DNA of 63,892 bases, filler included, from Chrysochromulina tobinii (taxonomy: Eukaryota), in the NCBI GenBank assembly GCA_001275005.1. It is 7 parts of 7 records of this genome, joined end to end, with 100 filler letters (N's around TTAATTAATTAA, not from the genome) between each part and the next. Parts side by side here need not be neighbours in the genome. Positions count along the whole stretch, not along the records: positions 1 to 17,456 come from JWZX01000505.1; positions 17,557 to 28,795 come from JWZX01000506.1; positions 28,896 to 33,972 come from JWZX01000507.1; positions 34,073 to 37,680 come from JWZX01000508.1; positions 37,781 to 57,013 come from JWZX01000509.1; 2 more parts are not named here. One strand, written 5' to 3'. The translations under genes and the position numbers were made by a program. Numbering within the stretch: the first letter of the stretch is position 1; the number at the start of each line of letters is the position of its first letter. The notes under the pieces were generated by a model. That model made no database searches, was not told the DNA's origin, and saw only the letters and a program-made list of their open reading frames with translations. Of the stretch, positions 216-55,493 are shown in pieces.

Positions 216-3200
216 ATGAACAATCCTCGCGTACAGACGGGCCGTGGAGGCCGAGGGCCCACCTCGGCGGCGCGCAGTCGCGCTCAGACCGCCGCCGCCG
301 CACCCGAGGGCCTGCAGGCCAACGGCCTGCTCACGGGCGTCTCGTCGATGTCGATCGTCGGCACCAACGGTCGCAAGGAGCCTGCAGGGGCGCCTGCGGC
401 CGCACCGCCGGAGAGCAGCCGCCGGCAGCTCCATGGGTCCAGCACAGAACAGCAGCACAGCGCTCGCAGCGCGCGCCAGACTGGCCAACGCAGCCTTAGC
501 CAGGATGGCGGGTTTGGTGACGGGCAGCAGCCGCGAGGCAGCGGCAGCAGCTTGGGCGGGAGCGTCACGGGCAGCACCGGGCTGGAGAGCAGCCGGAGCC
601 ACGGCCCGCGCGCGCACCACGCCTTGATTGCCGACGATGGAGTTCAGCACGCGTCGATCATGGACTTCAACACCGCGTTCTGCGCGTGCGTCAAAGTCTT
701 CTGTGCGAGCGTGGCGCCGTGCTACGCGCTGCCATGGGTGCGGGGCGAGGAGAGTCACACGACAGGCTCGGGCTTCGCGGTGGTGCTCCCCAACGGCGAC
801 CGGCGGCTGCTCACCCACGCGGCGATCTTGGAGAATCACTGCCTGGTGCAGGTGCGCCGCATGAGGCGAGGGCCGCAACGTGCGCATGGCGTCATGCTGA
901 GTGCTGCATCCCTCCTTGCCTGCTGAGCGCTACCTGCCTCGTTGCCGGCAGGTGCGCCGCGCGAGCGAGCACCAAAAGTACGTGGCGCAGGTCGTGTGCG
1001 TCGGGTACGACGTGGACATCGCCGTACTCAACGTTGAAGACGAGCAGTTCTGGCGCTCGATGCCGCTCCTGCCGCTCCCACACGGGCTGCCTGCTGCCAT
1101 GTCCGAGGTCCTGACAGCGGGCTTTCCTACGGGCGGCGAGGAGCTCGCGACCACGCGCGGTGAGTGCCCCTGCCGCCTACACACCGGTCCGAGATCGCCC
1201 CCGAGATCGCACCGAGATCGCACCGAGATCGCACCGAGATCGCACCGAGATCGTCCTCTGACTGCCCTCTGATCGCCACGAATGACCTCGGCGCTCTCGC
1301 GACGATTCGCAGGCGTGGTGAACCGCATCCTGCTTGGCGGTCAGACGCGGGAGCTGTGCGTCGCCATGGACGCGCCGATCAATCCGGGTAACAACGGCGG
1401 GCCGGTGCTCAATGTGCAAGGGCAGCTCGTCGGAGTTGCATGCTCGGGCACACAGGTGGGATTGCGTTTGATTGCGTTTGATTGCGTTTGATTGCATTTC
1501 GTCGGAGTTGCATGCTCGGGCACACAGGTGGGATTGCGTTTGACGGAGTGCCTCTCGATGGCCTCGGATTGCAACTGACTGTGGGGATGGCGTCCTCGGT
1601 CGAACAGCACGCGGCCGGCTTCATCATCCCTCTGCCTGTCATCCACACCTTTCTCGAGAACGCGGCTATCGCGGAGGCACAGGGGCACGAGTATGCGATA
1701 CAGGGATCGTCGAACCATGAAGAGTACCTTCTGAGGACCCCTGAGTACCCCCGGAGTGATACTCGGATCGTCCCTTCCCCGTGGCCCCAGGTACACGGGC
1801 AAGAACGTGGACCACTACCGAGTACAGCCCCTTGAGAATCCGGAGCTACGCATCTCGCTTGGATTGCCCGCACGCCCCGATGAAGGTGAGGATGGTGGCG
1901 TGCTTCTCTCGAAACTCGGACCGGACGCGGTGAGTCGCATCGCATGTGCTCCTCGAAAGCATGCTCCTCGAATGCATGCTCCTCGAATGCATGCTCCTCG
2001 AATGCATGCTCACGAATTTAATGCTCCCGAACGCCACCCTGAATGCCTCCCTGAATGTCCCTAATTTGGCAGGTGAGCGAGGGCATTCTGCGCGATGGCG
2101 ACGTGCTTCTCGCAGTCGATGGCTCCCCGATTGCTCCCGACGGCACCGTGATGCTACCCGAGGCCCCCTCCCTGCGTCTCGGGATGCGACATCGCGTGCA
2201 ACGCATGCCGCTGGGCACGGTGCTCGAGTATCTCGTCCTCCGAGATGGCGAGCGCATGGTCGTCCATGTGCCCACCTCGCCTCGTAAGCTTCGTCTGCTC
2301 CCGCCACGGCTGCCGGTGCCGCGGCCCGCCTGGCTCGTGCTCGGGGGCCTCGTCTTCTGCCCCCTATTGCCCGACTATGAGGCTCTGGTGCCCAAGTGCG
2401 CGCTGATTGCTATTGATGGCCATCTGATTGCTATTGATGGCCATCTGATTGCTATTGATGGCCATCTGATTGCTCCGGTTCGAATCCGCACGAATGGCCT
2501 GATGGCCTCCCTCATCAGCTACGGAATGGTCCATATGAGTGCCTCAAATGAGCTCTTGATGGTCTCCCTCATCAGGTGCCAGCTCCAGAGGATCCATGCT
2601 CTGATTGCCTCTGATGACCTCCCTCATCAGCTCTGATGGCCTCCCTCATCAGGTGCCAGCTCCAGAGGATCCATGCTCTGATTGCCTCTGATGACCTCCC
2701 TCATCAGCTCTGATGGCCTCCCTCATCAGGTGCCAGCTCCAGAGGATCCAAGCTCCGCCCACGCCCGAGCTGCTCGAGGTCGTCGTGCTGCTGCGTGTGC
2801 TCCAATCCGAGGTCAACATCGGGTACGTGATTGACGTGATTGACGTGATTGACGTGATTGACGTGAATGACGTGCGCTCCAATCCGAGGTCAACATCGGG
2901 TACGTGATTGAAGTGATTGACGTGATTGACGTGATTGACGTGATTGACGTGTGCTCCAATCCGTGGTCAACATTGGGTACGTGCGCCAATCACGTCCCGG
3001 GACTGGAGAGAGGCATGCAAGTGCTCACCACGGCGCCCGCGCTTCCCCACAGGTACGAGGACATCTGCGGCATGGTCGAGACCTTCAACGGCCATCGCGT
3101 CGCGTCGCTGATGCATCTGGCGCAGCTGGCGCAGCTCGCGCAGGAGACGGGCGCGGAGCTGCTCGAATGCATCCTGGTCACGGGCGAGCTGCTTGTGCTC

Positions 3201-3290
3201 GACGCGGCGCGCTGCTGGGAGACGGAGGACGAGATCTTCTCACTCCACACCATCCCGCGCCGCTGCTCCTTCGAGGTGACGCCCCTTTGA
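216..3290 (+). CDS. Deg/HtrA (DegP2/Deg9-like) trypsin-fold + PDZ protein, probably catalytically inactive; 7 predicted introns
   Basis: Motifs LPW...TGSGF, VQ|VRR...KY, DVDIAVL, GFPTGG...TRG|VVNR, DAPINPGNNGGP, GFIIP, ENPELR, GGLVF, EVNIG|YED. GT-AG introns 852-951, 1160-1312, 1456-1607, 1691-1790, 1930-2072, 2396-2729 and 2823-3052 join these into one frame. Confidence 0.85.
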
Positions 3291-3833: not shown

Positions 3834-5131
3834 TCACTCAGCCTTCTTGGTAGTCGTCACCTCCAATTTGGCCTTGTGGCCGTGGGGCTGCTTGCCGTAC
3901 GTGTGCAGCAGGACGCCGCCCACGATCGCGAGGCCCGAGAAGGCGAACGAGGCCTTGAAGGGCTTGGGGAAGAGCAGGAACGAGAGGACAATCGTGAGTA
4001 ACTTACGCGAGTTTGTTGCGACCACCGCCGCCGTCGCGCCCCAGGACCGAGTGAGCCCGATGAAGCAGCAGACGCCTACCCAGCTGCATGTGCCGTACAG
4101 GGTGAGGCGGGCCCAGGGCAGCTCGGCGGGAGGCACGAGCGTGTGCTCTCCTGTGGAGAGGATGGCAGCGACGACGGCGAAGAAGGCGAACCCGTTCGTG
4201 TAAAGCATCACGTGCATTGGCGTCAGGTGCGGGCTCGCTCGCAGCATCCGCTCGGAGAGGAGCACCTGATGAGGAAGGCAATCAGAGGTCATCAGAGGTC
4301 ATCAGAGGTCATCAGAGGTAATCGAGTGGTAACCCTTGGGCACGAGCACCTGATGAGGCAGGCAATCAGAGGGTCATCCGAAGCCATCAGCGGTCATCGG
4401 AGGTCATCAGCCAGCCGGAGGCGAGATCGAGGCGAGATCGAGGCGAGATCGAGGCGAGATCGCACCTGGACCGCGTCGCAGCTCACCGCGAAGAGCAGGA
4501 CGCCCACGCCGAGCGGCGACGAGCCCTTTCCGGTGCCGCCGCCGCCGTGGTCGGCGAGCGTGAAACCGACGAGGCCCGCGCACAGCAGCACCGCCGCCAG
4601 CTGGTCGGCGAGCGTGTACCGCTTGCGCAACAGCAGGGCTCCGAGCGCCATCGTGGGCAGCAGCTTGCACGACTTGACGACCACCTTGATCGGGTACGAG
4701 ACCCAGCGCAGCGCGACATTGCCCGAGACGAGCGACGAGAGCACGAGCAGCGAGATGCGCAGCAGCGTCCACACCGGCACGTTCCTCGGGTCGCCGCCAG
4801 TGATGCACAGCCAGAGGAGCGAGAGGAGCGCGCAGCAGCCGAACTCAAAGGACGAGATGATCAGAGGCAAGCCCTTCATTCCCTCCATGAGCTCCTCCTG
4901 CAAGACGGCGTGCAAGCAGCCAGCGGCGATGAGGATGAAGGGCAGCAGCGGCGTCATCCGTGGATTCATGAGAAACGAGGGTATCTCCAGCTCCGCCACC
5001 GGGGCCGCGGCACTGACCGACGCCTTGCCGTGGGCGCTGGTGGGAGATGCGGCGGCCGCCTTGTGCGGGGACGGAGCCGACATCGGGACGGCGCCGACGT
5101 CGTTATACTTGAGGTTCGCGGCCGTGCACAT
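3834..5131 (-). CDS. SLC35B/UAA-family nucleotide-sugar or PAPS transporter
   Basis: Motifs ALRWVSYPIKVVVKSCKLLPTM and VVATNSRKLLTIVLSFLLFPKPF, with multiple TM helices. One intron at 4266-4465. The start codon is uncertain (ORF open to 5398). Confidence 0.85.
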
Positions 5132-8068: not shown

Positions 8069-8095
8069 AGCCTACATTGTAGGCTACACCTGAAG

Positions 8096-11529: not shown

Positions 11530-12852
11530 ATGGACGAGCTCACCGATCGTCTCATCGCATCGCGTTATGGCGAACTTGCCTTTCTGCGGGCCCTCGCCGT
11601 CGTCGAAGCGAACAAGGACACAGTTGCCACTTTCTTTCAGCATCGTGCGACCAGAGACGAGCCCACCGCTCGTGAGGAAGTAATGAGAGTGGCCGCGTCA
11701 CGTTGCGTTAGTGGCATGGCGGCAGCATTCCGCACTGCGCTTGAGAACTCTCTCTCGCGTCAGGCTGTCCCTCGCGCGGCGGCATCGCAGACTCACCGCA
11801 ACCACGGGAATTCGCGGACGTCTGCCGGCCGGATGAGCGAGGCCAACAGTGCCCCGGTTCCACCTCCTATCGACGAGCCTGTTCAGACTATGCCCCCACC
11901 TACTGTGCCAGGGCCAGTGGGATTGGAATCGGGCGGACGCGGCGGACGCGCCGACACGCTCGACGAGGCAACGACGAACGTCGCGCGCTCGTCGCGGCCG
12001 AACTTCGTCGAACTTCGAGCGCTCGCGGCCAGCGGCCATGTCGGACGTATGCTGAGTAATGCATTCTTCCGCGAGCGCATTGAGAGCGTCCTACTAAGCA
12101 ACGTCGAGAATCCCAACGTGAGCACCGTCATGAATCGATTGTACCCGCACCTCCGCGGTGGCCGAGGGCTCAGCTCCGAAGGCGCAGCTCCGCGGGCGCG
12201 CACGTCTTTAGGCAGGGCTGCCTCTCCAGTGGAACAGCCACAGGCGCCACAGGCGCCACCGATGGCCGCTGTGGCGGCTCTGCATGGCAACCCCCCACCG
12301 CTCACCGGCAACCCTACCCTTGACAATCTGACCCTCGTGACCGGTGCTTCTTTCGAGCTGCTCCTCTCGATCCAACGCATGCTCCAGCAAGAGCTTGGCG
12401 CGGCGCTGCGTCACACCAGCCTCGATATTCATGCCGTCACCGATCACGCAATCTCGGGCATAGCTGCGACGGCGGCCGCCGCCACGCCCGCCGTGATGTC
12501 CAGTGCAGCCGTAGGCGGTGGCACGAGCAGCGGCAGCGGCAGCGACGCCTCAAGGCTGGGGTTCATTAATCTGTCCGTCCGTCCGTCGGTCCGTCCATCT
12601 CCGACCTCGCGGTGGATCTTTCCGCTGGGGGCGTGCGTCATTTGCACCGAGGCTGAGGTATCCACCGTCTTCTACAAATGCGGCCATATGTGTGCATGCA
12701 ACCTGTGCGCCTTCACCCTCAAGCAACGGCGCGCCAAGTGCCCCATCTGCCGCGCGCCCATCACTGATGTCATCCAAGCTTTCATCGCTTGCCCCCCACC
12801 CGAGGTTTCGGCCGCTGATGAGGTCGCTTCCGAAGCGCTCGATGCGGCTTAG
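11530..12852 (+). CDS. C-terminal RING-HC (C3HC4) zinc-finger protein, putative E3 ligase
   Basis: CVIC...FYKCGHMCACNLC...CPICRAPI. Confidence 0.88.
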   Translation: MDELTDRLIASRYGELAFLRALAVVEANKDTVATFFQHRATRDEPTAREEVMRVAASRCVSGMAAAFRTALENSLSRQAVPRAAASQTHRNHGNSRTSAGRMSEANSAPVPPPIDEPVQTMPPPTVPGPVGLESGGRGGRADTLDEATTNVARSSRPNFVELRALAASGHVGRMLSNAFFRERIESVLLSNVENPNVSTVMNRLYPHLRGGRGLSSEGAAPRARTSLGRAASPVEQPQAPQAPPMAAVAALHGNPPPLTGNPTLDNLTLVTGASFELLLSIQRMLQQELGAALRHTSLDIHAVTDHAISGIAATAAAATPAVMSSAAVGGGTSSGSGSDASRLGFINLSVRPSVRPSPTSRWIFPLGACVICTEAEVSTVFYKCGHMCACNLCAFTLKQRRAKCPICRAPITDVIQAFIACPPPEVSAADEVASEALDAA

Positions 12853-13628
12853 TTGGCTCGATGCCCTGTAGCAGGCGGCTCGAGCGGAACGGAGCCAAGT
12901 CACAATGTGCAGCCGGGCAAGTGGAGCGCTCCAAGGTGACTGGTCGTGATTGAGGCGTGTGATCTCCTCCCTCCTCGAGATCAGGGACTGGCCGTGATTG
13001 AGGGTGTGGTGAACCTCGAGATGGGCGACGAGCCTTGTGGGCTGAGACCAGCATCGGTTAGTCGGAGGACGGAGGGTTTGGCGTGGGCATGTAATTGTAA
13101 AGCCGCCGTACCGGACATGATGATTACTGTACCGATGGAGAACCGATGGAGGCTTGGGCGCAGGGCGGGCGCGCGGGTCGCAATCACAGAGGCTGGGCAG
13201 GGGCATTCAACGAAACCACAGCAAAGCGGCACCCGTTTGCGACATTCGGCTTCCCGCGGACATACGCGGACGAGCTTCTTAAGCTTCCGCGGTACACGCC
13301 GGATCCGCGGATGCCCGCGAGCGCGTACAGCTGGGGCGCTCGGGCTCAGCTGCGACGAGCATGCAGCATCGAGCTGGCGACCCCCGATCTCAGTAAACTG
13401 TGCCTAATTTTGAGCGAAGACGGGAGCGTACCGCAAGTAATGTGCAGCGAACTGCAAGTAATGAACGTAGCACGCCAGACGGCAACGTGAACCGTCGCGG
13501 TGTGTACCGTACATGGTACCGTAGAACCGTACTCGTCCAACCTCTAACGCTACTGTACGGAGATACTTAGGGACGGGACACTCTGTTGCAGGCACGTCTG
13601 AATAAAGCTGTAAGCTGCCGGTCAACGG

Positions 13629-14237
13629 TCAACATTCTAACGCCGTAAGCGGCTGCCGAACGCTCAACGAAGCTCTGAATGAAGCTGTGGGCTGCGGTGA
13701 GGACCACCCTTTCTTGAAGGTCTTGCTATCGAATGGATTGTCCTTGTCGCTTGCGCAGTGGCTCATGACCGCCGCCCGTGACGATGGTCGGTAGGTGGGC
13801 CGCTCCCAGGCTCGGAAGCTCTCATCTGTGGGTCCTGGTGCTGCTGTGGCTACCGCAAGCTGCTTAGCACGTTCCTTCTCCCACCGTGCGTACTCCTCTT
13901 CGCACTTTGCCTGCCGCTCTCGGCGGCGCTCCTCCGCACGCTTTTCCGAGAGCGCGATCAGAAGGTCGTATGCATCCTGCACCGCCAAAAATTGGGAGTC
14001 GTCTCCAACCTTGTCCGGATGCGTGTCCAGCGCTGCCTTTTTGTACGCCCTGCGGATGTCCGCTACCGATGAGGAAGGCCCAATTCCCAACAAAACCAAG
14101 GCCTCAGCCGCACGGGCGTCCTCCTCCAAACGCGCTGTCGCATTTTCTGAGTGCTCGGTCGACGGCCCCGCCCTGCCGGTTCGGCTAGTCGACGGCCCCG
14201 CCTTGACGAGGCGCGTTGACCTCGCCCCCTCTGCCAT
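13629..14237 (-). CDS. J-domain (DnaJ-type) protein
   Basis: LGI...ADIRRAYKKAALDTHPDK...FLAVQDAYDLL. Confidence 0.75.
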   Translation of the reverse strand: MAEGARSTRLVKAGPSTSRTGRAGPSTEHSENATARLEEDARAAEALVLLGIGPSSSVADIRRAYKKAALDTHPDKVGDDSQFLAVQDAYDLLIALSEKRAEERRRERQAKCEEEYARWEKERAKQLAVATAAPGPTDESFRAWERPTYRPSSRAAVMSHCASDKDNPFDSKTFKKGWSSPQPTASFRASLSVRQPLTALEC

Positions 14238-21104: not shown

Positions 21105-21192
21105 TCCTGTTTTTTGCTCATAAATATCGAAAGTTGCTCACAAATCGCGCGTCATGACACGGCGGCCGCTCGTGCAACCCCACAGCCTTCGC

Positions 21193-24703: not shown

Positions 24704-27544
24704 ATGATCTTGCGGCTTGGCGTGTCGCCAGCCATACTTGTGCCCGTGCTTGCAAGCGCCGGGATTGCCACTTTCGCAATACAGACGAAATGCTTCTCGC
24801 TGCGTGATCTCGTGTCGCGCACGCTCGTGGAGTTCGCGATGCTGCGTATGCAGCTCAGCCTAATGCACCTGGGCCTTGTGGGCAGTAGAACTTCGCTGGC
24901 TTCGTGGCGGCAAATGCAGCGCGACTTAGCCGCCCTGCTGGGGCTCGAGAAGCTTCGCCGACTGCACACTCGTGGCCTCATCGGCAGTCCGATGGAGCCG
25001 CCGCCCACGCCGCGCTCCATTCGCCTCGGCCCTTTTGGTTCTGTCCGGCTGCCACCTTTTCTTTCGCGTCTTGGTCCAGCGCCAGCGCCGCCGACAATGG
25101 CTGCCGGGGACAACATGGTGTTCAAAGATCTTGTTCTCGTTGGTGGCGGCCACTCGCACGCCCACGTGCTCAAGATGTGGGGTATGGCTCCGGAGCCGGG
25201 CGTGCAGTTGACGCTGGTGACGCGTGATCTGGACACGCCGTATTCGGGCATGCTCCCTGGCTACGTGGCGGGCGCGTACACGTGGCGCGAGTGCCATATC
25301 GATCTGGCGCGGCTCGCAGCCTACGCCGGTGCCCGTCTCGTCCACGCCGAGGCCTGCGGCCTCGACACGGCCAACAAGCGTGTTCTCCTCAAAGGGCGTC
25401 CACCCCTCGCGTACGATGTCATCTCCATCGATATTGGCTCCGCACCAAAGCCTGTAGCCCTCGCGCCGGACGCGAGTGCGGCCGATCCGGCGGCGGTCGC
25501 CGCACACCTGCCGTCGGTCACGCCGGTCAAGCCGATCGATGGCTTCTGCCGTCGCTGGGACGCGATCCTCGAGCGGGTATCCTCGTTTGATTGCCTCTGC
25601 CTTGATTTGCCTCTACTGGATGGCTTCAACGATTGCCTCTGCTTGATCCTGATGACCGCTGATGGTCCCTCTCCTCAGGTCCTCGCACTCCCCGAGGGCG
25701 ATCAGGCGCGGATCGTGGTGGTCGGCGCGGGCGCGGGCGGTGTGGAGCTCGCTCTCTCAATGGAGGGCAGGCTGCGTCGTGAGATCCACAAGCGAGGCCG
25801 CCGGCCTGCGTCCCTCGAGGTGACCCTGGTCGGTCGCCGGCTGATGCCGCAACACGCGGAGGGCGTGCGTCACATTTTTGAGGGCATGCTTGAGCGGCGT
25901 GGCATCAAGACGATCCTCGGTACGAGTATCGCGTACGCTACTCCGACACACCTGCACTGCTCCGACGGATCGACGATCCAGTACGACGAGGCGATCTGGT
26001 GCACCGCCGCCGGCGCGCAGAAGTGGTTGTACGAGACGACCCTTGCCCTCGATCCCGGTGGTTTCATCGCGGTGCACCCGACTCTCGAGTCGATCAACAC
26101 GCCTGGGGTCTTCGCGTCCGGCGACGTGGCAGCCGTGCTAGAGCACCCACGCCCAAAGGCGGGCGTCTTCGCGGTGCGCCAAGGCATGCCTCTCACCAAC
26201 AACCTGCGGCGCGCCCTTCGTGCAGAGCCGCTGGTGCCCTTCGTCCCCCAAGCTTCCTTTCTCGGACTCATCGGCGGAGGCGACGTGGCGACTTGCGTGG
26301 CCTCGCGCGGGCTGCTGGCATATGAGGCGCCGTGGCTGTGGACCCTTAAGGATTGGATCGACCGCACGTGGATGCATGCGTACACTGAGGGCCTGCCGCC
26401 TCCGATGATGACCAAGATGGCGCAGCCGCCACCCTCCGCCGTCGCTCTCGCCTCGGGCCGCGATGCTCTCGACGCGCTCGCCCATGCGTCGATGCGCTGC
26501 GGCGGTTGCGGCGCCAAGGTAGGCGTGTCAGTGCTGCAGCGGGTGATGGCCCGGCTTCGTGAGGGCGATCACCTGCCGCCCGATCCGCCGGAGGTGCTTC
26601 TTGGCCTCGACTCGCCTGACGATTGCGCCGTCCTCGCCCCCTCGAAGCTCGCGTCGGTCCACACGGTGGACTTTTTCCGCGCTCTCATCGACGACCCGTT
26701 CGTCTTCGGCCAGATAGCCTGCAATCACGCCCTCTCGGACTGCCATGCGATGAACGCGAAGCCGACGGGCGCGCTCGCGATTGCGGTGGTGCCCTTTGGG
26801 CTGGACGCCAAGGTCGAGGAGTCTCTCTTCCAGATGATGGCTGGCGCCGCTAAGGCGCTTCGAGAATCAGGATGCCCTTTGCTCGGGGGTCACTCGTGTG
26901 AGGGAGCGGACCTCTCGCTCGGCTTCTGCGTCACTGGAAGCATCGAAGCGTCCCACGTGCTTCGTAAGAGCGGACTGAAGGCGGGTGACAAGCTCGTGCT
27001 CACCAAGCCGATCGGGACTGGAGTGCTCTTTGCCGCGCACATGCGGGGGGCGGCGCAGGGCGCCCATATGGCCGCCGCCACGCGCGGCATGCTCACGTCG
27101 AATGCAGGGGCGGCGCGTGTGCTCGCGGAGCACGGGGCGACGGCTTGTACCGACGTCACGGGCTTCGGACTCCTGGGTCACCTGTTTGAGATGGCTTCGG
27201 CATCGCGAGCCCGTGTGGCGCTCGACATGGCGCGACTGCCGCTCCTTCCGGGCGCGCTTGACCTGGTGACGAGGGGCTACATGTCTTCCCTACAGCCCTC
27301 TAACCTTCGGCTCCGTCGTGCCATCGCGAATGAGCAAGCCGCCCTCGCCCATCCTGCTTACCCTCTCCTGTTTGATCCGCAGACCGCGGGAGGGCTGCTC
27401 TCTGCAGTACCGGCCGCCCAGGCGGACGCCTGCGTGAAGGCGCTTGTGGCCGCTGGCTACGGCGAGACGGCCATCGTGGGTGAGGTTCTACAGGTACTCG
27501 GCGAAGGGGTCTGCGTACCTCACCTCGTCGAATGCCGCCTGTGA
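24704..27544 (+). CDS. selD: Selenide, water dikinase fused to an N-terminal FAD-dependent pyridine-nucleotide oxidoreductase domain
   Basis: Oxidoreductase motifs LVLVGGGHSH, YSGMLPG, VVGAGAGGVE, KAGVFAVRQG. SelD motifs MRCGGCGAKV, DDCA, TVDFF, GGHS, TKPIG, TDVTGFGLLGH, DPQTAGGLL. Probable in-frame intron 25577-25678. Confidence 0.95.
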   Translation: MILRLGVSPAILVPVLASAGIATFAIQTKCFSLRDLVSRTLVEFAMLRMQLSLMHLGLVGSRTSLASWRQMQRDLAALLGLEKLRRLHTRGLIGSPMEPPPTPRSIRLGPFGSVRLPPFLSRLGPAPAPPTMAAGDNMVFKDLVLVGGGHSHAHVLKMWGMAPEPGVQLTLVTRDLDTPYSGMLPGYVAGAYTWRECHIDLARLAAYAGARLVHAEACGLDTANKRVLLKGRPPLAYDVISIDIGSAPKPVALAPDASAADPAAVAAHLPSVTPVKPIDGFCRRWDAILERVSSFDCLCLDLPLLDGFNDCLCLILMTADGPSPQVLALPEGDQARIVVVGAGAGGVELALSMEGRLRREIHKRGRRPASLEVTLVGRRLMPQHAEGVRHIFEGMLERRGIKTILGTSIAYATPTHLHCSDGSTIQYDEAIWCTAAGAQKWLYETTLALDPGGFIAVHPTLESINTPGVFASGDVAAVLEHPRPKAGVFAVRQGMPLTNNLRRALRAEPLVPFVPQASFLGLIGGGDVATCVASRGLLAYEAPWLWTLKDWIDRTWMHAYTEGLPPPMMTKMAQPPPSAVALASGRDALDALAHASMRCGGCGAKVGVSVLQRVMARLREGDHLPPDPPEVLLGLDSPDDCAVLAPSKLASVHTVDFFRALIDDPFVFGQIACNHALSDCHAMNAKPTGALAIAVVPFGLDAKVEESLFQMMAGAAKALRESGCPLLGGHSCEGADLSLGFCVTGSIEASHVLRKSGLKAGDKLVLTKPIGTGVLFAAHMRGAAQGAHMAAATRGMLTSNAGAARVLAEHGATACTDVTGFGLLGHLFEMASASRARVALDMARLPLLPGALDLVTRGYMSSLQPSNLRLRRAIANEQAALAHPAYPLLFDPQTAGGLLSAVPAAQADACVKALVAAGYGETAIVGEVLQVLGEGVCVPHLVECRL

Positions 27545-45323: not shown

Positions 45324-48300
45324 ATGCATATGCAAGAGCGCTCAGGCTACTGCAAGGTGCCGCCAACGAGCACAATCAAGATCTCAGTCATGCAGTACCA
45401 AAAGTGGCGCCAGGGACACCGAGGCAAGCGAGGTCGCAACTTCTTGAACGACGACGTGGAGCCCGGCTTTGACGCTCTGCTAGCTGACGAGCTCGCGGCC
45501 GCGTCGACGGAGGTGCGCGACCTGTTCGAGGCGTGCTCGGCGGCAGAGCCCCATCGACTGCGCGAGCTCCTTGATGCCAAAGCGGACGTCAACCTGGCTC
45601 TGCATGAGACGGCGACTCCTCTGACGACCGTGATACAGGCGAGCACGCGCGGCAGCGCTTCGGATCCGCTCGCATGCATCCGCTTGCTGCTGGAGGCGAA
45701 AGCACGGCCAGACGAAGCCGTCTTCGCTTCCGACAGCGGCACGCCGATTGGGGTTGCCACTCCACTCATCTTGGCGTGCGCCAAGGAGGACCACGCGCTG
45801 GTCGATCTGCTTCTCGAGCACCATGCGGCGCCCGACAGGACAGGGACCCTCAGCGACGGATGCCACCCGATGACTCCACTGATGGTCGCTGCCAGCCGAG
45901 GCGCGGTGGAGGTCGCTGAGTCCTTGCTTCGTGCAGGTGACCACTGATGGCCACTGATGACCGCTGATGACCTCTGATGACCTCTGATGACCACTGATGA
46001 CCGCTGATGACCACTGATGGCCGCTGATGACCTCTGATGGCCACTGATGACCACTGATGACCTCTGAGTGCGCCGAGTCCTTGGTTCGTGCAGGTCATCC
46101 GCTGCATGCGATCATCACCGAGGCGTCGCCCAGCTACCACGGCGATGATGCGATGAGCTTCACGATGAAGAATGCGCCGCCGAGCCTCATGCCGGCGATG
46201 GTGAAGCTGCTGCTGAGTGCGAGCCGCTCCCAGGATCCTGAGGGCTTCAACGCGCGGCACACCTCTGATATGCTGCAGTGCAGCCAATTTCTGGCCGAAG
46301 ACCGAGCCCTGATGGGGCTGCAGCTGCTTCTCGATGCCAAGGTGGACGTGAACACGCGCGTCTCGTGTGGGACGAGGTTGATGAACCCAAGCACCGGCCA
46401 CTTGACCCTCGTCGATTCAGTCATAGCATTGTGCGTCTGCTCACAGCCGTGCGCCCCTCCCCTCCCCTCCCTGCATGGGAGCCTAGCACGGCGCCAATGT
46501 CCTCATCTGTGCCTCCCCGCCCGCCGCGCAGTGCCATGACCCGCAAGAAGACATCCGCGTCGATCATCGAGCTACTCCTGAGGGCAGGCGCTGATCCTCA
46601 GGCCGCAATGAGTGCGATGCTCATGGGGCGCGAATATGACCACCAAACTGTCCGGCTGGTGCAGGACGCGTTCCAAATGATGAGCTACGCTGGGAAGCGC
46701 GTGCAGGTGCGCACGATGGTCAGTCGGCCGGAGCTCGTCGGCGCGCGCGGCAGAGTGCTCAAGAGCCGGAGCTGGCAGGGCATCGGCCGCCTAGCAGTGC
46801 TGCTCGAGGGGGAAAGCGTGCCGCTCTCGCTGCGAGTGTCGGCATTGCACTTTGGCGATGAGCCTCTGCCTTTCCTCGAGGGCCCCAACAACCCGGAGCG
46901 CGCTGAGGCAGCGCTGCGTTCCGATGACCAGGGGGCCGATACCGTTGACAACGAATGGGGCCTTCTCGCGCAACCTGAGGCCACCCCTCAGTCGTCGGAT
47001 TCCATGCCTCTTCAAAAGCTGGATCATGACGAGATCATGGCAAGATCGGAACGAGATCGAGACGAGATTACGCCTCTTGAAAACCTGGATCTAGACGAGA
47101 TCATTTGGCTGCTCGGTCCGCAGGATCAGCAGATTGCGCACGATTCGCAGGACCTGCACGTGCTCGCGTCGAGCAGCGACCTCAGCGACGTCGAGGATCG
47201 CATGAGGCGTGCGTGCAGGGATGGCGACATCGCCACGATGCGGGCACTCATCCAGCTCGCCCCTTCGGTCGTCTTTGAAAGCCACGAGAGGTCCCTCCTC
47301 GGAGAGGCCGTGTGCTCCTCGAAGAACACTGTGGAATGCATCCAGCTGCTGCTCGAGACCAAAGCTTCGCCAAGGTCGTCGTCGTCGTCGTCCAAGGAGC
47401 CCTCGCCCGTCTTCTATGCCACGATGATGGGGAAGCTCGAGGCGATCGAGCTGCTGCTCAAGGCGGGGGCCTCCTACGACGATCCGTGCCAAGGGCAGAC
47501 GAACATGTCGGCACTGGTCGGGCTCATGGGGATGATGCATGCATCTGCTGGGTGCCGCAGCGAGCAGATGGAGGCCCAGTTGCAGTGTATCGAGGCCGTC
47601 CTGCTCACGGCCTATGCGCAGCCCTCGCGGGAGATTGTGCGAGCTTGCCTCTTCAACATCTGGTGTGAGCGCGGCACCACTGGTTTGGTTCGGTTAATGC
47701 TCGGACAGAAAATGGATCCGAACCTTGACTACCAGTCCGCCGAGCCCGACGCCGGGGCCCGTCCCCTCTTCCCCGCGCGCGGCCACATAGACTGGACGCC
47801 GCTCATGCGCGCGTGCGCGGGAAAGCACCACGGCTGCGTCAAGATGCTCCTTGAGGCTGCCGCCAACCTGACGACAGCTTGTACCACGGATGCAGGGCCG
47901 AAGACGCCGATGCAGATGGCGCAGTCTCAGAACGACACCGACTGTATTCGGCTGCTGATCAGCATGCTGCAGCGGGGCCAGAAGCTCGTGGGGCAGACCG
48001 TCCAGGTCGTCGATGACTTCAAGCAAGCCCTCACCGGCAGGCTGGCGGAAGTCATCGAGTTCGATCCCAGAGAAGGCCTGTGCCGAGTCTCCGTCGTCGA
48101 AGAGGGCTCGCGCCGAATCTACCTCATTCCTCCTGCGAAGCTGCAAGCGTACACCGACGAGAGCGAAGTGGATGCTTACGAGCCGTCTAGCCCGCACTCG
48201 AATCCCTCCAGCCCGCGCCAGCCCGACCCGAGCAACAACGAGGACGACCGAGTAGCCCTGGTACCTGCAGTCAGCCGTGCGTCGTGTAGGCTGATGGAAG

Positions 48301-51300
48301 GCGTGAACGCCCTCAGTCTTCACAGGGTGCTGGAGTCGCTCGCCCTTGGCGCCAATGTGAACGGGATCTGGAATCTGGATCGTGGGCCTGTCACGCCGTT
48401 GCGCCTGGCCTCCGAGGCCATGGATGCTCCGAGGCAAGAGGTTGCTCATCCGTTGATGCTGCTCGTCGCCACGCTCCTGGCTGCACGCGCGGATCCGCAG
48501 CTGACCCTTGAGGATGGCTGGAGCTTCGACAAATGGGCCCAGGGCGATCCCAAACGTAATGAAATGCTCGTCAAGATTTATGACGCGGCGGGCAGAGCGC
48601 TCTCAGCCCCTCTGATTGCCGAAGGGGACGAGCTTGGCCTCCTCGAGACGCTCCGTGCCATGGAGCAGGACAAGAATGTGGCCCTCCTCCGTGCCCTCAC
48701 TCAGTACGTAGAGGATCCCGAGAAGAACGAGGGCAGCTGCGAGTCGGACCATTACCTTTCGGTGTGCAGCTTGCTCATCTCGGGCGCGAATCCAAACGCA
48801 GAGGTGGAGACGCGAGAGGGATGCCTCACGCCGCTCTTCATTGCGTTCCATTGCTACAACCCCAAGTCCGCGCCCGGCTCGGAGCTCTTTGCTGTGCGGC
48901 TGCTGCTTGCCGTCAAGGCCGATCCCTTTGCACACGTGACGGATAGGTGGGTGAGCGGAGAGCCTTGGACGCTTGAATTAGCCGCCAACAGCTCCGGCTG
49001 GCGCAATCTGGCGGGCTTGATTGATATGCTCGACCTGCGCGAGCTCGCCGACGCTGATGATTGGATTGAGTTCGATGGCTGCGACATCGCCACGTGGTCG
49101 GACGCTGCGATCTGGCTGCTTAGGAAGGCGGAGGACCCTCGGAATACAGACACGACAGGGAAGATGAGCTCGATGAGGCGGCACATTGATGAGCTGATGG
49201 CCCAAATGCGTATCCCCAAGTCTTACTTCGCTAAAGTCGAAGCGCTGGGCTCCTTGGTGCAAGCTCTCGTGGATCGCATTCGTCACGATTTGTCCACCGC
49301 GGCGCCGCGGCGGTCGTCTGGGGAGAATGACTCCGAAGTGGATGTGTATCAGGACGCGCAGGAAGAGAATGGGCAGTCGGGCTCTCCCGAGCAAGACGAG
49401 CCGAGGCTCCAGGAGCATCACCTTCGAGCGCTCGGAGCCATCCTGTGTCATTGCGCCGAAGCGGACGCGAGCTCGGCGGTGCTGCAGCTCCTGGACCACT
49501 CTGGCTTCGCGAATTCGTCTGGCTTCGAGCTTGTCCTCCAGACCGCGGACGAGAACACCGCGCTTTGGTACGCAGCCTCGAATGGGAACCGAGCAATGAC
49601 TGAGAAGCTCATCGGCCACGGCGCCCACGTCAACTTCCGCAAGTCCAGAGGATTAGGGTTGCAGCAGCATGAGGGCCCATCGGTCCTCGGGATTGCGTGC
49701 CAGGAGGGTCATCGTGGCTGTGCTGAGCTGCTGCTCGAGGCGCTCGCCCACGTGGATGGGGGCGAGTGGTATCCGGAGAAGCAGGTCTGGCATACGTTCA
49801 TCACGCCGCTGATGTTTGCATGCGACTCAGGCCATTGCTTGTGCGTTCGCCTCCTTTTGGAGCACAATGCGAGCGCGGACCTTCGGCTTCACGGTGTGGA
49901 GAAGGGTGGGCCGGAGCTCGCAATCGAGTTCGCCGAAGCCGCTGAGGAGTCGAACGATAGCAAGCTGTGCATCAAGATGATGCAGACGCACGGCGCGAAG
50001 GAGGAGATGCTTCAACGGCAACGGAAGGGCCAATCATCGACCAGCTTGCTCGAGGAGCTCGGCGGCAAGGGGAAGCGGCTGGTGGTCAAGAACCAGAGAG
50101 CGCCCAAGGACCCGAAGCTCGAGTCGGAGCTGCTTCACTGGGCCATTCGGCATGGGGACTTGGCCTTCGTGTCCAGGTGGCTGCGTGATGGCGGCCGAGA
50201 TCGCATCGATGAGCGCTGCCTCGACGGGTACACGCCGCTCGAGGTGGCCTCGCGACAGAGCCTGATGGAGCCGTATGGCGACGAGCGCTGCGCGAGCCAC
50301 ATGCTGGTCTCGAAGCTGCTCAAGTCCAAAGCCAATCCCAACACGCCGGATGGTCCGCTCGGCTGCTTCCCACTCCTGCTCGCGGCGACACAGGGCAGTC
50401 CCTTCTCTGTCGACATCTTGCTGGCTGCGGGCGCGGATGGCGCGCGCAAGACGCGCTTCGACCGTTGTGCGGCAGAGCACGCGCTCGCGGCAGGCCGTAC
50501 GACGATCGCTCATCTGATCCTCAATCACGCGTACCACGAGCAATGGCACAAGCGCGAGAGCAAAGGTCGAATGCTGCGCGCGCAGCGGGCCGCCATAGAG
50601 GTGGTCACTGGCTTCATTCAGACGATCGTGCAGGCGCACACAAGCCAAGCGAGCACCGACCATGCAAGCGTCGACGTGGACGATGGGCTCACGCTGCCGC
50701 AGCTCGAGCAGCAGCATGCAAGTGCTCACCACGGCGCCCCCAGCCTGCTCGAGCAGCTCGAGCAGCTCCTCGACGTGCACGGGGACGCGCTGCGTGGTAC
50801 GGACACCCTCGCGCAACGTACCCTGGCGCAGGCCATCGGCGTACGGGACGAGCTGCGGCGAGAGCAGAGCCAGTGCAGCGCCGAGAAGGCGGAGCGAACC
50901 CTTCGGGAAGCGTGCCGGGCAGCGACGGACGCCGCGTCGGGTGTGCCTGTCAAGGCGCGGTACGAGACGTTACGGCAGGCGATTCACATTCACACAAAGG
51001 CCCTCGAGGACACAGCCAAGGCGGGCGTGCTCAAGGAGGCGCGAAAGGTGCGCGAGCAGCTCGCCGAAGAGAGTCGCAGGGCCGCCAAGCGGGACGCGGA
51101 GAGCGCGAAGCGGGAGCAGAAGCGTCGCGACGAAGCCGCGCGCGCCGAGGCGGAGGCCGAGGCGGAGGCGATGGAGGAGATGCAACGGGAGGCTCGAGAG
51201 GAAGCGCAGAAGCGGCGTGGTGAGGCGGCACGCGCCGCGGCGGAGGCCGCCCGCGCCGAACTAGAGGAACTCAAGGCGGAGACGGAGGAGATGCCGCGAA

Positions 51301-51435
51301 AGGCGCGCGAGCAGGCACAGCAGGCACAGCAGGCACAGCAGGCGCAGCAGGTTCAACAAGATGAAGAAGAGCTCGCTGCGCGTGTGGCGGCGGCGGCGGC
51401 AGCGCCGTCGGCGGCAGCGGCGCCGTCTGTGGCAG

Positions 51436-51466
<31 letters not shown>

Positions 51467-54400
51467 GGCGGACTCACGGCCCGAACCGAGCACGAAGGCC
51501 AAGAAAAAGCGGCGTAGCAGTGGCGGCAGCGCAAGCGGAGCGGCGGCGGGAATGGCGGCGGCGGCGGAGACCGAGCCACGTGTTTCAGCGGCGGAGGCTC
51601 GCCAGAGGGAGAGGCTCGCCGAGATGGAGGCTGAGGATGAGCGCCAGCTGCTCGCGGCCATCGAGGCCAGCTTGCTCGAGCAGCAGCAAGCTGGCGGCCC
51701 GCCATCACCTTCGCCCGCGCCCGAGCCCACGCCCGAGACGGCGCCGGAGCCCGCGCCCATCACGGCGTCCAGCTTGCCTCGGGAGGCGACGCCCAACACG
51801 GCGCCCATGGTGGAGGCGAAGGCGCCCAGCACGGCGCCCAGCACGGCGCTCAAGGCCGACAAGATGGCCGAGAGGAAGGAGGCCAAGCACGCCATCAAAG
51901 AGGACGCTAAGATGGAGGCCAAGGACGGAACGACAAGCGATCTCTCGAGCGATCTCCCGCCCTCGCTGAGCGTTGCCGTGGGCTCTTCCGAGCGCTCGGC
52001 ATGGGTGACGAGCCGGTCGTTTGTAGGCCCCTTGATCGTCGAGTCGCAATCGCGGCCGGGCCACGTGCGTCGCGACCTGTGCATCCGCAAGGAGGGCCTC
52101 GCCTTGATCGCGGGCACCAACCAGAGGCGCCTCAAGGACATCGAGGACGCGACCGGCTGTTCCATATTTGTCCTCGATCGGGAGGGGCCGCCGCCCGGCT
52201 GCGGCCCGAACGAGCGCGCCCTCGTGCTCGTCGGCAGCTCGGACGGTGTCGAGTTCGCCACTCTGATGCTCTACGATGCCGACGCGGCGGGGTCCGACTC
52301 GGCGCTCAACTCGGCGCTCATCCTCGGACCGCTCGTGCCAGAGGTTTCGTCAACGGCCACAGAGGTTTCGTCAACGACTACAGAGGTTTCGTCAACGACC
52401 ACAGAGGTTTCGTCAACGGCCGCAGAGGTTTCGTCAACGGCCACGCCGTCGGCCGCCGCGCCGCAGGTCGAGTCTGTGCAGTCGTTGCAGCCGTTGCAGC
52501 CGTTGCAGCCGTTGCAGCCGGTGGACTCGTCGGAGCCTTCGGCCACAGCAAAGTTCGAGCGCGCGAAGAGCCTCGACGAGCGCGCCGTCGTGGGCGCCCG
52601 TCCGGAGAAGCCATCGCCTCTCGCCCTGGGCCCGGCGATGGCGCCCACGACGGCGCCCACGCTCGCGCCCACGACGGCGCCCACGACGGCGCCGGCTGTG
52701 GAAGCGCCGATGGCCGCGGTCCGCCCCTATAAGCAGCAGCCCTGCCACTTCTTCGCGAGGGGACTGTGCAAGAACGGGGGGCTCTGCCCCTTCTTGCATG
52801 GCGAGGCCGACCCTCGACTGACCGACCCGCGCCTCATCAGTCCTCGGGCCGCGTCTCAGAAGAAGGATGTGCGCCGCACGTCTCTGCCGGCGGGTGCGCC
52901 GTCGCCTTCTCCGCCGCCACCGCCACCGCTCCCGCCAGCTACTGAGGCACACGTGACCTCGCCGCCGCCGCCGCCGCCGCTGCGGCTGCCGCCAATCGCC
53001 GGGGCAGATGCAGCGCCGTCTCGGGCAGATGCGGCGCCGTCTCCTCCTCCTCCTCCTCCGCCGCCGCCGCTGCTGCCAGCTACTGAGGCGGCCGATGTAG
53101 TTCCATCTCCCCCGTGGTCTGCTATGGCCGCAGCGGCCTCGAGCAAGGGCACTGCCCGCGGGCGTGGCGGGCGTGGCGGGCGTGGCTCGCGCGGCGGTAC
53201 GCCCGCCACGACGCCCCAGGACGGCACGCCCGCCACGACGCCCCTGGACGGCACGCCCGCCACGACGCCCCACAGCGGCCCGCTCGCCGCAGACGGCCTC
53301 TCCGGGGCGTCGGGTGTGCTTGGGCCGCTCGACACGGCGCTCGACTTGCTGCCGCCTGCAGCGAGCGCGAGCAGCCCCCCACCCGGTCTGTCGATCAACG
53401 GCGCGCTCTGGCCGTCGTCAGCAGGGCCACTCGCAGCAGGGCCATTCACAGCAGGGTCATTCACAGCAGGACCATTCACAGCAGGACCATTCACAGCAGG
53501 ACCTCAGAGCCACCCGCCGCTCGAGACGACGCTCTCGCTCCGTCCGCTCGAGATGAGCGCCGAGATGAGCACGTCCCAGACGACGCTGCGCGGGCTACGG
53601 AATCTGGGCAAGACGTGCTATCTCAACGCGTGCCTACAGAGCCTCCTCGCAACCGAGGCGGTGCGCGTGCACTTCCTCGCGAAGCAGGTTTACACGGCGG
53701 CGAAAGGGTTCGAAGTGCCCACGACGGCGCCCCTCGGCAACGGGTTGCGGCCGTCGGTGCCCACGACGGCGCCCAGGGTCCGCGCGGAGGGAGAGCTGAC
53801 CAGCGCCATGCGCAGCTTCGTGCGCGAGATGCACGGGCCGCTGACCGCGTCGTCCGAGGCCGTGCGTCCCGTCGGACTGTTGCGCGCCGTCTCGACGCGC
53901 CACTCCCGATTTGGGCAGCGGACGGAGCAGGACTCCCATGAGGTGCTTCGTCAATTGCTCGAGGGCATCCGGTCCGAGGAGGTCTGATTGCGTCTGATTG
54001 CGTCTGATTGCGTCTGATTGCACCCCTCATCAGGTGCTTCGTCAATTGCTCGAGGGCATCCGGTCCGAGGAGGTCGAACGACTCAAGGGTGAGGCGGCGG
54101 AGGCGACGGCAGCGGTGTCGCCTCTGACGAAGCCCAAGGCACTACCGAATTTGGCACTGCCGCCCATCGAGCCCGATCCGTGCACGATCATCGATGAGGT
54201 CTTCAGCGGCGAGCTGCGATCGACGATCGTCTGCTGCACCTGCGGGAGCGTCTCGTGCGCGCATGAACCCTTCCTCGACCTTTCCCTGCCGATGCCGCGC
54301 CGCGGCCGGCTCGACGCGCAAGATGGGCCCCAGAGCCCGGGAAGCCCCAGAAGCCCCGGAAGCCCCGGAAGCCCCGGAAGCCCCGGCAGCCCAGCCGAGG

Positions 54401-55493
54401 ACACATTCGCCGACACGCCCGCCGTCGCGAGCGGCAGCGGCGGCGGCGCCCGGGGCTTCGTGGGCGGCAGCCCCGGCCGGGGCGGGGGCAGCAGCGGCGG
54501 CGGGCGCGAGGGCAGTGGCTCGGCAGATCTCAATCTCGATCTCGGATCGGCAGATCTCACCGACGAGGTGCTCGCACAGCTGCCGAGCGTCCTCACCTCC
54601 AAGCCTTCACAGCTGCACCTGGGATCGTGCCTCGCTGCCTTTTTCGCGCCGGAGACCCTGCGCGGCGACGATGCGTATGACTGTGACGTCTGCAGCAAGC
54701 GCGCGGCAGACGCAGCTGTGAAGGCCTCCTCTGCCAAGGAGGCCAAGGCAGCCGGCAAGACGGACAAGGCACACGGCGCCGGCGCCCACGGCGGCGCCAA
54801 GGGTGAGAGGGAGCTGGCGCAGCCGCCGTCTCCCAGGCCGAAGCAGCCCGGGCTGAAATGGCTTCAGGTCAACGGACTGCCACGTGTCCTCTGATGGCCT
54901 CTGATGACCTCTGATGGCCTCTGATGACCTCTGATGTCCTCTGATGGCCTCCCTCATCAGGTCAACGGACTGCCACGTGTCCTCTGATGGCCTCTGATGA
55001 CCTCTGGTGGCCTCTGATGGCCTCCCTCATCAGGTCAACGGACTGCCACGTGTCCTCTGATGGCCTCTGATGACCTCTGATGGCCTCTGATGGCCTCCCT
55101 CATCAGGTCAACGGACTGCCACGTGTCCTCACGCTACACCTCAAGCGTTTCCGAACCACGGGTCGGAAGGTGCATAAGCTGTATGAGCACGTGCCCTTCC
55201 CGCTCGTGCTCGACTTTTCGTCCTTTGCATGCCAGCCTGGTGAGCCCGTCAAGCACTACACGCAGCTCAGCGACGGCGTGGCGCGCCCGCCGTCCGCGGC
55301 GCATCTGAGCTTGTACGCGGTCGTCGAGCACCAGGGCACCTTTGTTGGTGGTCACTACGTCGCCTTCGTGAAGAACGGGGGCGCGTGGTACCGCATGAAC
55401 GACAGCGTCGTCACGCACGTGAGTGAGGCGACCGTGCTCGAGGCCAAGGCCTTCATGCTCTTCTATCAGCAGACGCCTTCGCCGACCGCCTGA
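45324..55493 (+). CDS. Giant ankyrin-repeat / coiled-coil / UIM / KH / CCCH-zinc-finger / USP deubiquitinase
   Basis: Many TPLxxA...LLxAxA ankyrin repeats; EDERQLLAAIEASL; KH-like IAGTNQRRLKDIEDATGCSI; CHFFARGLCKNGGLCPFLH; GLRNLGKTCYLN, EQDSHE, HQG...GGHY...ND. Introns 45937-46093, 46431-46531, 53943-54033, 54868-55106. The 5' end is uncertain (may begin near 45026). Confidence 0.8.

What the first reader, a model, noticed from the sequence alone, without database searches (positions are those of the whole stretch)
2396..55106. Shared CCTCATCAG acceptor plus CTGAT microsatellite cassette in introns of four unrelated genes
Introns 2396-2729 (Deg), 4266-4465 (SLC35B, minus), 38539-38715 (IQ protein, minus), 53943-54033 and 54868-55106 (USP giant) all end in CCTCATCAG preceded by CTGATG/CTGATT repeats. 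Introns 25577-25678 and 45937-46093 share the repeats. Such conservation across unrelated genes suggests an Introner-like family or a template repeatedly copied into introns. No terminal inverted repeats are visible, so it does not look like a typical MITE-derived Introner.
Basis: partly seen in the sequence, partly recalled or inferred. Interest (0 to 1): 0.75.

Follow-up and report, generated by a model that had tools for sequence, protein, structure and literature searches.

The report
Introns that seed neighbouring introns
In a small haptophyte alga, many short introns consist of a duplicated 11-51-base piece of the gene's own coding sequence plus a repeat-rich intron end that often resembles a nearby intron, so they were likely made by copy-and-patch DNA repair rather than by a transposon, which would be a testable answer to where new introns get their sequence.

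Summary
Confirmed, but incomplete. All five named introns end in CCTCATCAG after CTGAT repeats (13 20-mer matches, 0 expected, all intronic and sense). RNA contigs splice 2396-2729 and 45937-46093. One window protein is identical to a Chrysochromulina tobinii record. Only 1 of 9 RNA-supported introns has this end, so it is not the general consensus.

At 53943 the first 42 intron bases copy the next exon and supply the GT. In 144 metagenome loci, 53 of 126 acceptors have such a copy (control 4 of 2483), 11-51 bases long. Fillers resemble neighbouring introns, decaying with distance (6/10 under 500 bp, 0/7 beyond 3 kb, 4% between contigs). One orthologous pair shows a filled and an empty site; the filler is 47/49 identical to the intron 448 bases upstream. 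Mirror forms and a second filler family exist.

Likely cause: templated repair plus selection for spliceability, not a fixed transposon. This scan already noted the duplication footprint elsewhere in this genome (e1-2577349); neighbour templating, the empty site and the RNA support are new. A published Introner screen lists zero families for C. tobinii.

The parts
2396..2729 (+). Deg protease intron: older 5' part ending in a cassette at 2575, plus two stacked 77-nt units
   Evidence: RNA joint GT..AG, run X20; tandem array
2576..2729 (+). Two units (2576-2652, 2653-2729), each a 26-nt copy (1 mismatch) of the downstream exon start plus CTGAT repeats and CCCTCATCAG
4266..4465 (-). SLC35B/UAA transporter intron with two cassette ends (4350, 4266); only 6 nt match the exon start
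   Evidence: 11 of 12 homologues read through the site; no RNA joint seen
25577..25678 (+). Selenide,water dikinase intron with decayed CTGAT repeats and a variant end (CTCCTCAG); 102 nt, open in frame
   Evidence: 34-aa insertion against 17 of 17 spanning homologues; spliced form identical to C. tobinii KOO52778.1
38539..38715 (-). IQ-protein intron ending in the cassette; holds a 12-nt copy of the upstream exon and a 9-nt copy of the downstream exon (weak)
45937..46093 (+). Mirror-type intron: GT plus 13 CTGAT-type 10-mers, then a 23-nt copy (46071-46093, 2 mismatches) of the upstream exon end, which supplies the AG
   Evidence: RNA joint in 3 of 3 RNA runs
53943..54033 (+). USP intron 1: perfect 42-nt copy of the next exon start (53943-53984 = 54034-54075), which supplies GT, plus four (GTCTGATTGC) repeats and CCCTCATCAG
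   Evidence: 4 of 4 homologue representatives read through
54868..55106 (+). USP intron 2: three stacked, non-identical units (54868-54960, 54961-55033, 55034-55106), each a 24-nt copy of the exon start 55107-55130 plus the cassette; 4-nt CCTC overlap at the junction
55087..55106 (+). Constant 20-nt end: branch-point-like CTGAT, pyrimidine tract and CAG; weak hairpin
   Evidence: the branch-point role is inferred from the CURAY consensus (recalled)
1456..1607 (+). Deg intron holding an internal 29-nt copy of the upstream exon end, with GATTGCGTTT repeats
   Evidence: RNA joint in 4 of 4 runs
2823..3052 (+). Deg intron with internal copies of the upstream exon end, ACGTGATTG repeats, and the second acceptor family (GTGCTCACCACGGCGCCC..CCCACAG)
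   Evidence: RNA joint in X20

Best explanation
These introns are built from a duplicated 11-51-base piece of the gene's own exon with a CTGAT-repeat filler between the two copies, and they were likely made when DNA repair or a stalled fork copied the end of an existing, often neighbouring, intron into an exon. Step 1 (inferred): a staggered break or template switch in an exon leads to re-synthesis of about 25 nt, which gives the duplication. Step 2 (supported statistically; enzyme unknown): the free end primes on a few matching bases in the repeat array of another intron, most readily one within about 3 kb, and copies part of it. Step 3 (inferred): most such insertions are harmful; those survive whose duplicate starts with GT/GC while the filler ends in the template's branch point, pyrimidine tract and CAG (type A), or the mirror arrangement (type B), or whose duplicate holds AG|GT itself. 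Splicing then restores the original mRNA exactly (shown for 2 window introns by RNA, and by homologue alignment for SelD, SLC35B and USP). Step 4 (partly shown): each new intron is a new template, and units stack by further duplication, so CCTCATCAG spreads without a transposon of its own.
For: Exon-start copy at 53 of 126 terminal acceptors against 4 of 2483 swapped controls; median 25 nt, range 11-51, 97.4% identical, 32 perfect. In 41 of 53 the first copy follows non-cassette sequence rather than an older cassette end. Exons after cassettes start with GT in 93 and GC in 18 of 121 (G was required by the pattern), also where no copy is left (66 of 73). Neighbour similarity falls with distance: 6/10 pairs under 500 bp, 5/14 at 0.5-1.5 kb, 2/11 at 1.5-3 kb, 0/7 beyond, against 4.3% between contigs; 9 of 18 contigs against a permutation mean of 1.5, p=0.0002. 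Filled and empty site: L039 has 79 extra nt (28-nt perfect duplicate plus filler) where orthologous L065 has one copy in an open frame and keeps the two upstream introns. The filler is 47/49 identical to the intron 448 nt upstream after loss of one 10-nt unit, and its linker occurs in only 3 of 146 loci, all this gene. L127 has two introns 202 nt apart that share a 20-mer found in no other locus. Paralogue L100 has a second duplication-flanked insert identical to its neighbour 126 nt upstream, not starting at GT; L076 is empty there. Junction overlap of 3 nt or more in 9 of 19 scorable cases against 17.5% in the null, p=0.007. Mirror and internal types exist (31 A, 11 B, 9 I, 9 mixed, 37 none, of 97). 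An unrelated acceptor family shows the same footprint at 8 of 25 sites. Relatives on 10-94 kb contigs read through the SelD and SLC35B sites.
Against: 73 of 126 acceptors show no detectable copy; in the window SLC35B, SelD and IQ have none or only traces. Only one orthologous presence/absence case among four orthologous groups found, from assembled contigs, and its direction is unpolarised: loss between the 28-nt repeats would give the same picture. Only 19 of 53 junctions were scorable for microhomology; 5 of the 19 had none. A neighbour was among the best matches in only 7 of 29 cases with any same-locus hit, 4 upstream and 3 downstream, so distant copying or decay is needed as well. Neighbour pairs are not independent, and later gene conversion would also make neighbours alike. 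A constant 20-nt end (80+31+14+1 of 126, fixed by the search pattern) is also what a mobile element would have. Homologue searches can show only relatives that lack the introns. No enzyme was identified.
Confidence: 0.6

Rival explanations
1. A short non-autonomous mobile element (an Introner) with a fixed hairpin end is mobilised in trans by a retrotransposon RT (target-primed, 5'-truncated) or by an HUH/Replitron transposase, and makes long variable target-site duplications; local hopping explains neighbour similarity.
For: Precise constant end next to the target G[TC], fuzzy other end, variable duplication. This matches the insertion signature described for Replitron-1, and one Replitron locus is reported in C. 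tobinii (PMC10288648, passages). The terminal 20-mer can fold (-3.8 kcal/mol, z -3.0 for one variant). The earlier scan note e1-2577349 favoured a mobile family.
Against: No fixed body or length (115 distinct of 126; 26-254 nt). Mirror and internal types lack the constant end. A second, unrelated end family shows the same footprint. The commonest variant barely folds (-0.9 kcal/mol, z -0.7). No intergenic or antisense copy among 13 in the window. No poly(A) seen, no terminal inverted repeat, no autonomous partner found (the whole genome could not be searched).
Confidence: 0.2
2. The intron positions are old. Slippage across exon-intron borders duplicates exon pieces into existing introns, gene conversion makes neighbours alike, and old intron parts are deleted; there is no net intron gain.
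For: 12 of 53 first copies follow an older cassette end and 12 of 53 are multi-copy stacks. Deg 2396-2729, 1456-1607 and 2823-3052 hold exon copies inside longer introns. Intron repeat length varies between orthologues (80 nt in L002/L004).
Against: 41 of 53 first copies abut non-cassette sequence directly. L065 has no intron at all at the L039 site. SelD, SLC35B and USP relatives, some on long contigs, read through the sites. L100 shows insertion into former exon sequence.
Confidence: 0.13
3. The motif is the ordinary 3' splice consensus with microsatellite slippage, or the duplications are short-read assembly artefacts.
For: CTGAT, a pyrimidine tract and CAG are normal splice signals (recalled). 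All DNA seen is from short-read assemblies.
Against: 8 of 9 RNA-supported window introns end otherwise. Stacked units differ from each other (93, 73 and 73 nt, with a variant base), 21 of 53 copies carry mismatches, and separate assemblies agree 100% over stacks (L012/L059).
Confidence: 0.04

Closest known systems
Introners that carry the 3' site and recruit the 5' site from the TSD (Symbiodinium; Polarella classes 4/5 and 6/8/10; bioRxiv 10.1101/2020.10.14.339549, section 3 part 1 read)
   Same: Same geometry as type A: the element end gives AG, the first TSD bases give the donor, and the mRNA is unchanged.
   Different: Those have fixed 3-8 nt TSDs and family-wide sequence (Symbiodinium also inverted repeats). 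Here the duplicate is 11-51 nt, the filler is variable and often resembles a neighbour.
Haptophyte Introners: Chrysochromulina MAG family 5 (Gozashti 2022, passages); E. huxleyi fam24 (PMC12130899, supplement file 8 rows)
   Same: Same algal group; no TIRs in the MAG family. E. huxleyi fam24 is scored 'co-opt 5' carry 3'' with '10bp terminal direct repeats'.
   Different: The MAG family has a 4-bp TSD and carries its 5' site; fam24 has 5 copies and its sequence was not seen. C. tobinii GCA_001275005.1 is listed with 0 families (file 7).
Intron gain by tandem genomic duplication and by double-strand-break repair (Daphnia) (review PMC3443670, passages)
   Same: An exon duplication supplies splice sites; direct repeats flank new introns.
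   Different: Classical tandem duplication takes both sites from an internal AGGT with no filler; Daphnia repeats are described as short and the filler source is mostly unknown. Here the filler is traceable to other introns and brings branch point and acceptor.
Patch/templated insertions with duplications in rice, and SD-MMEJ/Pol theta templated insertions (review PMC7407515, passages; primary paper not read)
   Same: Duplications with inserts copied from DNA near the break; microhomology at junctions.
   Different: Not linked to intron creation in the passages seen; no self-amplifying motif.
Replitron-1 insertion signature (PMC10288648, passages)
   Same: One precise end at a dinucleotide, one fuzzy end, variable-length TSD.
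   Different: Replitrons are 0.9-3.6 kb elements with terminal direct repeats and a Rep transposase; none is linked to this cassette.

Membership tests
Introner (intron-generating TE) | Many similar intronic copies in unrelated genes | tested here: met
   13 window matches in 4 genes, 126 distinct terminal sites in 144 loci; similarity is limited to the 3' 20-40 nt
Introner (intron-generating TE) | Similarity along nearly the whole intron | tested here: not met
   The 5' part is locus-specific exon copy; 115 distinct -40..-21 20-mers of 126
Introner (intron-generating TE) | Spliced out exactly | tested here: met
   RNA joints for 2396-2729 and 45937-46093; homologue alignments; no joint displayed for four other named introns
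Introner (intron-generating TE) | Empty orthologous sites | tested here: inconclusive
   One orthologous case (L039/L065), one paralogous (L100/L076), read-through in relatives; direction not polarised
MITE/TIR-type Introner | Terminal inverted repeats | tested here: not met
   3 nt or less in 53 of 53 inserts; only an internal 20-nt hairpin
MITE/TIR-type Introner | Fixed short TSD (2-10 nt) | tested here: not met
   11-51 nt, median 25, among the 53 detected; copies scoring under 10 were not counted
Replitron/Helitron (HUH) | Autonomous Rep-encoding partner sharing the termini | not testable with these tools
   No genome held
Replitron/Helitron (HUH) | Terminal hairpin | tested here: inconclusive
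   -0.9 to -3.8 kcal/mol; z -0.7 to -3.0
Non-LTR retroposon (SINE-like) | Precise 3' end, truncated 5' end with microhomology, variable TSD | tested here: met
   For type A only; types B and I do not fit
Non-LTR retroposon (SINE-like) | tRNA/7SL/5S-derived head, A-rich tail, or partner LINE 3' end | tested here: inconclusive
   No A-rich tail in the inserts printed; head and partner not searched
Tandem-duplication / break-repair intron gain | Direct repeat of exon sequence bracketing the intron and supplying a splice site | tested here: met
   53 of 126 against 4 of 2483
Tandem-duplication / break-repair intron gain | Filler templated from nearby DNA with junction microhomology | tested here: met
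   Distance-dependent similarity p=0.0002; microhomology p=0.007 on 19 of 53; holds for part of the sites
Tandem-duplication / break-repair intron gain | Dependence on a repair enzyme (for example Pol theta) | not testable with these tools
   Needs genetics
General 3' splice consensus | Present at most introns | tested here: not met
   1 of 9 RNA-supported, 5 of 14 examined window introns

The most novel reading that the evidence does not exclude
Introns beget introns without any transposon: the gene's own unspliced transcript (or its transcribed DNA) templates repair of a break in an exon and writes a neighbouring intron's branch point and acceptor behind a duplicated GT. This would explain the strict sense orientation, the confinement to genes and the within-gene similarity, and would be a self-propagating route of intron gain, running in waves (two filler families), that full-length similarity screens for Introners would miss.
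Probability: 0.25. Interest if true: 0.9.

Novelty: new variant of a known kind. Interest (0 to 1): 0.72.

Why it matters
The source of new intron sequence is a long-standing gap; a 2025 screen attributes ongoing gain mainly to transposons and lists no Introner family for C. tobinii. Here donor, target and junction can be read for individual events in a cultured, sequenced alga. Five cassette introns in about 63 kb would scale to a few thousand in a 59-Mb genome (rough; the window may be enriched; genome size from PMC4580454). That is enough to test repair-based against transposon-based gain directly. The stacked AG|GT units are also natural candidates for recursive splicing.

Tried and rejected
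No whole genome or record handles were available, so genome-wide counts and the search for an autonomous element were not done. The pattern has 0 matches in viral contigs and 2 single matches in prokaryote genomes (L145, L146, not examined further).

The first duplication scan and the exact-seed version were swamped by repeat-internal hits and are not used for counts. One search is cleaner, but its 37 'none' rows still mix noise, decayed copies and duplications inside older introns, and the loci were picked by a type-A pattern.

A template polarity (always upstream) was considered and is not supported: 4 upstream, 3 downstream. The hairpin as a recognition signal is weak. Depth at cassette bins (12,000-26,000 against about 40) is a sum over contigs and is not taken as copy number. 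P0164 first looked like a relative with the same intron but is chimeric-looking and was dropped. USP read-through in P0146/P0154 cannot be assigned to DNA or RNA.

Rows dropped before counts: 12 redundant loci; 37 of 126 sites from assemblies outside the group judged, by contig-name prefix and 100% identity, to be one strain, for the neighbour test (with all 126, 13 of 46 pairs are in the top 5%).

Literature: 10 searches found no description of this intron anatomy in haptophytes. The library lacks most subscription papers. The E. huxleyi genome paper was not held; its report of 10-11-bp intronic repeats is recalled only. Supplement files 13-14 of PMC12130899 were not searched, the PMC9860276 file was cut when stored, and bioRxiv supplements are closed; marine Chrysochromulina family sequences there could bear on novelty.
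Full report
Setting. The window is a set of contigs joined by N linkers. Its selenide,water dikinase exons are identical to, and adjacent in, Chrysochromulina tobinii KOO52778.1, so the DNA is from that haptophyte or a very close strain. No whole genome was held.

CCTCATCAG occurs 15 times against 0.77 expected. The 20-nt end has 13 matches against 0 expected, all inside the five named introns and on the sense strand. CTGAT[GT] occurs 56 times sense in 2,279 nt of intron, against 45 on both strands in the other 61 kb. RNA contigs splice 2396-2729 (1 of 4 runs) and 45937-46093 (3 of 3 RNA runs, not the DNA run). The other named introns rest on open frames after joining and on homologues: SelD 17 of 17 spanning, SLC35B 11 of 12, USP 4 of 4 representatives. 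The motif is not the general acceptor: 1 of 9 RNA-supported introns has it. In the loci, 101 of 121 acceptors are followed by sense coding sequence, close to held-out exons (139 of 158) and unlike intergenic DNA (70 of 177).

The first 42 bases of intron 53943-54033 are a perfect copy of the next exon's start. Intron 54868-55106 is three stacked units, each beginning with a 24-base copy. The Deg intron ends in two units with a 26-base copy. In the loci, 53 of 126 terminal acceptors have such a copy, against 4 of 2483 swapped controls. Copies are 11-51 nt, median 25, 97.4% identical; 41 of 53 follow non-cassette sequence directly and 12 follow an older cassette end. The exon after a cassette starts with GT or GC in 111 of 121 cases (G fixed by the pattern), also where no copy remains (66 of 73), as expected if copies have decayed. 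The layout is [T]-filler-[T], and removing GT..AG restores one T. The 45937 intron is the mirror: the filler gives GT, and a copy of the upstream exon end gives AG. A broader scan found 31 type A, 11 mirror, 9 internal, 9 mixed and 37 unresolved of 97 (noisy and biased to type A). An unrelated acceptor family shows the same footprint at 8 of 25 sites, mostly with mismatched copies. The process is therefore not tied to one sequence.

Where the filler comes from. Beyond the constant 20 nt the fillers are diverse (115 distinct of 126; 26-254 nt; no terminal inverted repeat). Among 89 sites from assemblies taken to be one strain, close cassettes are alike: 6 of 10 pairs under 500 bp, 5 of 14 at 0.5-1.5 kb, 2 of 11 at 1.5-3 kb, 0 of 7 beyond, against 4.3% between contigs; 9 of 18 contigs against 1.5 by permutation, p=0.0002. 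Three cases are explicit. (1) L039 carries a 79-nt intron where orthologous L065 has a clean single copy in an open frame and keeps both upstream introns. Its filler is 47/49 identical to the intron 448 nt upstream, less one repeat unit, with a linker found only in this gene (3 of 146 loci). (2) L127 has two duplication-flanked introns 202 nt apart sharing a private 20-mer. (3) L100, a diverged paralogous fragment, has an extra duplication-flanked insert identical to its neighbour that does not start at GT, while L076 is empty there; this suggests that insertion is blind to splice sites and selection does the sorting. Junction overlaps of 3 nt or more occur in 9 of 19 scorable cases (of 53) against 17.5% in the null.

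Limits. A neighbour was among the best matches in only 7 of 29 cases, with no polarity. 73 of 126 sites show no copy. The one orthologous polymorphism is from assemblies and could be a loss between the repeats. Later gene conversion could add to neighbour similarity. Homologue searches see only relatives that lack the introns.

Mechanism. Best reading (0.6): templated repair or fork switching duplicates about 25 nt of exon and patches in the end of another intron. Variants that happen to splice cleanly are kept and become templates, so one acceptor spreads. The anatomy is shown, templating from neighbours is supported for part of the sites, and the break, the enzyme and DNA versus RNA template are inferred. 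Rivals: a trans-mobilised mini-element of TPRT or Replitron type (0.2; the signature resembles Replitron-1, but there is no fixed body, mirror types exist and the hairpin is weak); renewal of old introns without gain (0.13; real for the 12 stacked cases, not for the empty sites); general consensus or artefact (0.04).

Comparison. It works like Introners that carry AG and recruit GT from the target duplication, but fails membership on whole-length similarity, fixed TSD and inverted repeats. It meets the defining footprint of duplication/break-repair intron gain and of nearby-templated patch insertions. What I did not find in print is the combination, with an intron end as recurring patch (10 searches, listed under Tried and rejected). 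The C. tobinii genome paper has one main-text hit for 'intron'. The 2025 screen lists 0 families for this assembly, and a 5-copy E. huxleyi family with 10-bp direct repeats is the nearest entry. What I saw of papers: passages of 10.1101/2022.06.06.494994, PMC10288648, PMC4580454, PMC3443670, PMC8469720 and PMC7407515; passages, section 6 and supplement rows of PMC12130899; supplement rows of PMC9860276; abstract and section 3 part 1 of 10.1101/2020.10.14.339549. I had the footprint before seeing it; it gave me the dinoflagellate paper as a lead.

Verdict. Real, not ordinary splice consensus, and probably not a classical Introner: a new variant of duplication/repair-based intron gain in which introns likely seed their neighbours. 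Interest 0.72.

Noticed in passing
window 45266: All four runs laid (3 RNA, 1 DNA) lack one base here, so the assembly has an extra base and the ankyrin-KH-CCCH-USP gene probably begins near 44975.
   Followed up: no
window 46269-55493: Giant ankyrin + KH + CCCH zinc finger + ubiquitin hydrolase fusion; one frame is open for 2,572 codons before the first USP intron.
   Followed up: partly
window 50714-50743: A truncated copy of the second acceptor family sits inside the ankyrin ORF between CTCGAGCAG repeats and is retained in RNA contigs that span it: a possibly exonised insertion.
   Followed up: partly
window 3015-3052; 19 of 146 loci: Second shared intron end (GTGCTCACCACGGCGCCC..CCCACAG) with the same duplication footprint at 8 of 25 sites.
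   Followed up: partly
window 1189-1253 and 4418-4462: Third intronic repeat type, 11-nt CCGAGATCGCA / GAGGCGAGATC arrays, in opposite orientation relative to the two genes.
   Followed up: no
window 25577-25678: The intron is 102 nt and stop-free, so gene callers read through it; public proteins carry it as a 34-residue insert or start inside it (P0121, P0122, P0128, P0001).
   Followed up: yes
window 35891-36676: Satellite of a 56-bp unit, 14 copies, 91% matches.
   Followed up: no
window 57121-62240 (minus strand): Three long overlapping ORFs with no Pfam hit at E 0.5; by eye the C-terminal part recalls a copia-type RNase H end (recalled, untested).
   Followed up: partly
P0164: A public protein whose first 47 or so residues match the window's USP intron end and last exon, while the rest matches another species' cluster; probably a chimeric assembly.
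   Followed up: partly
L145, L146: Single exact matches of the 20-mer in two prokaryote genome bins; chance or contamination, not examined.
   Followed up: no
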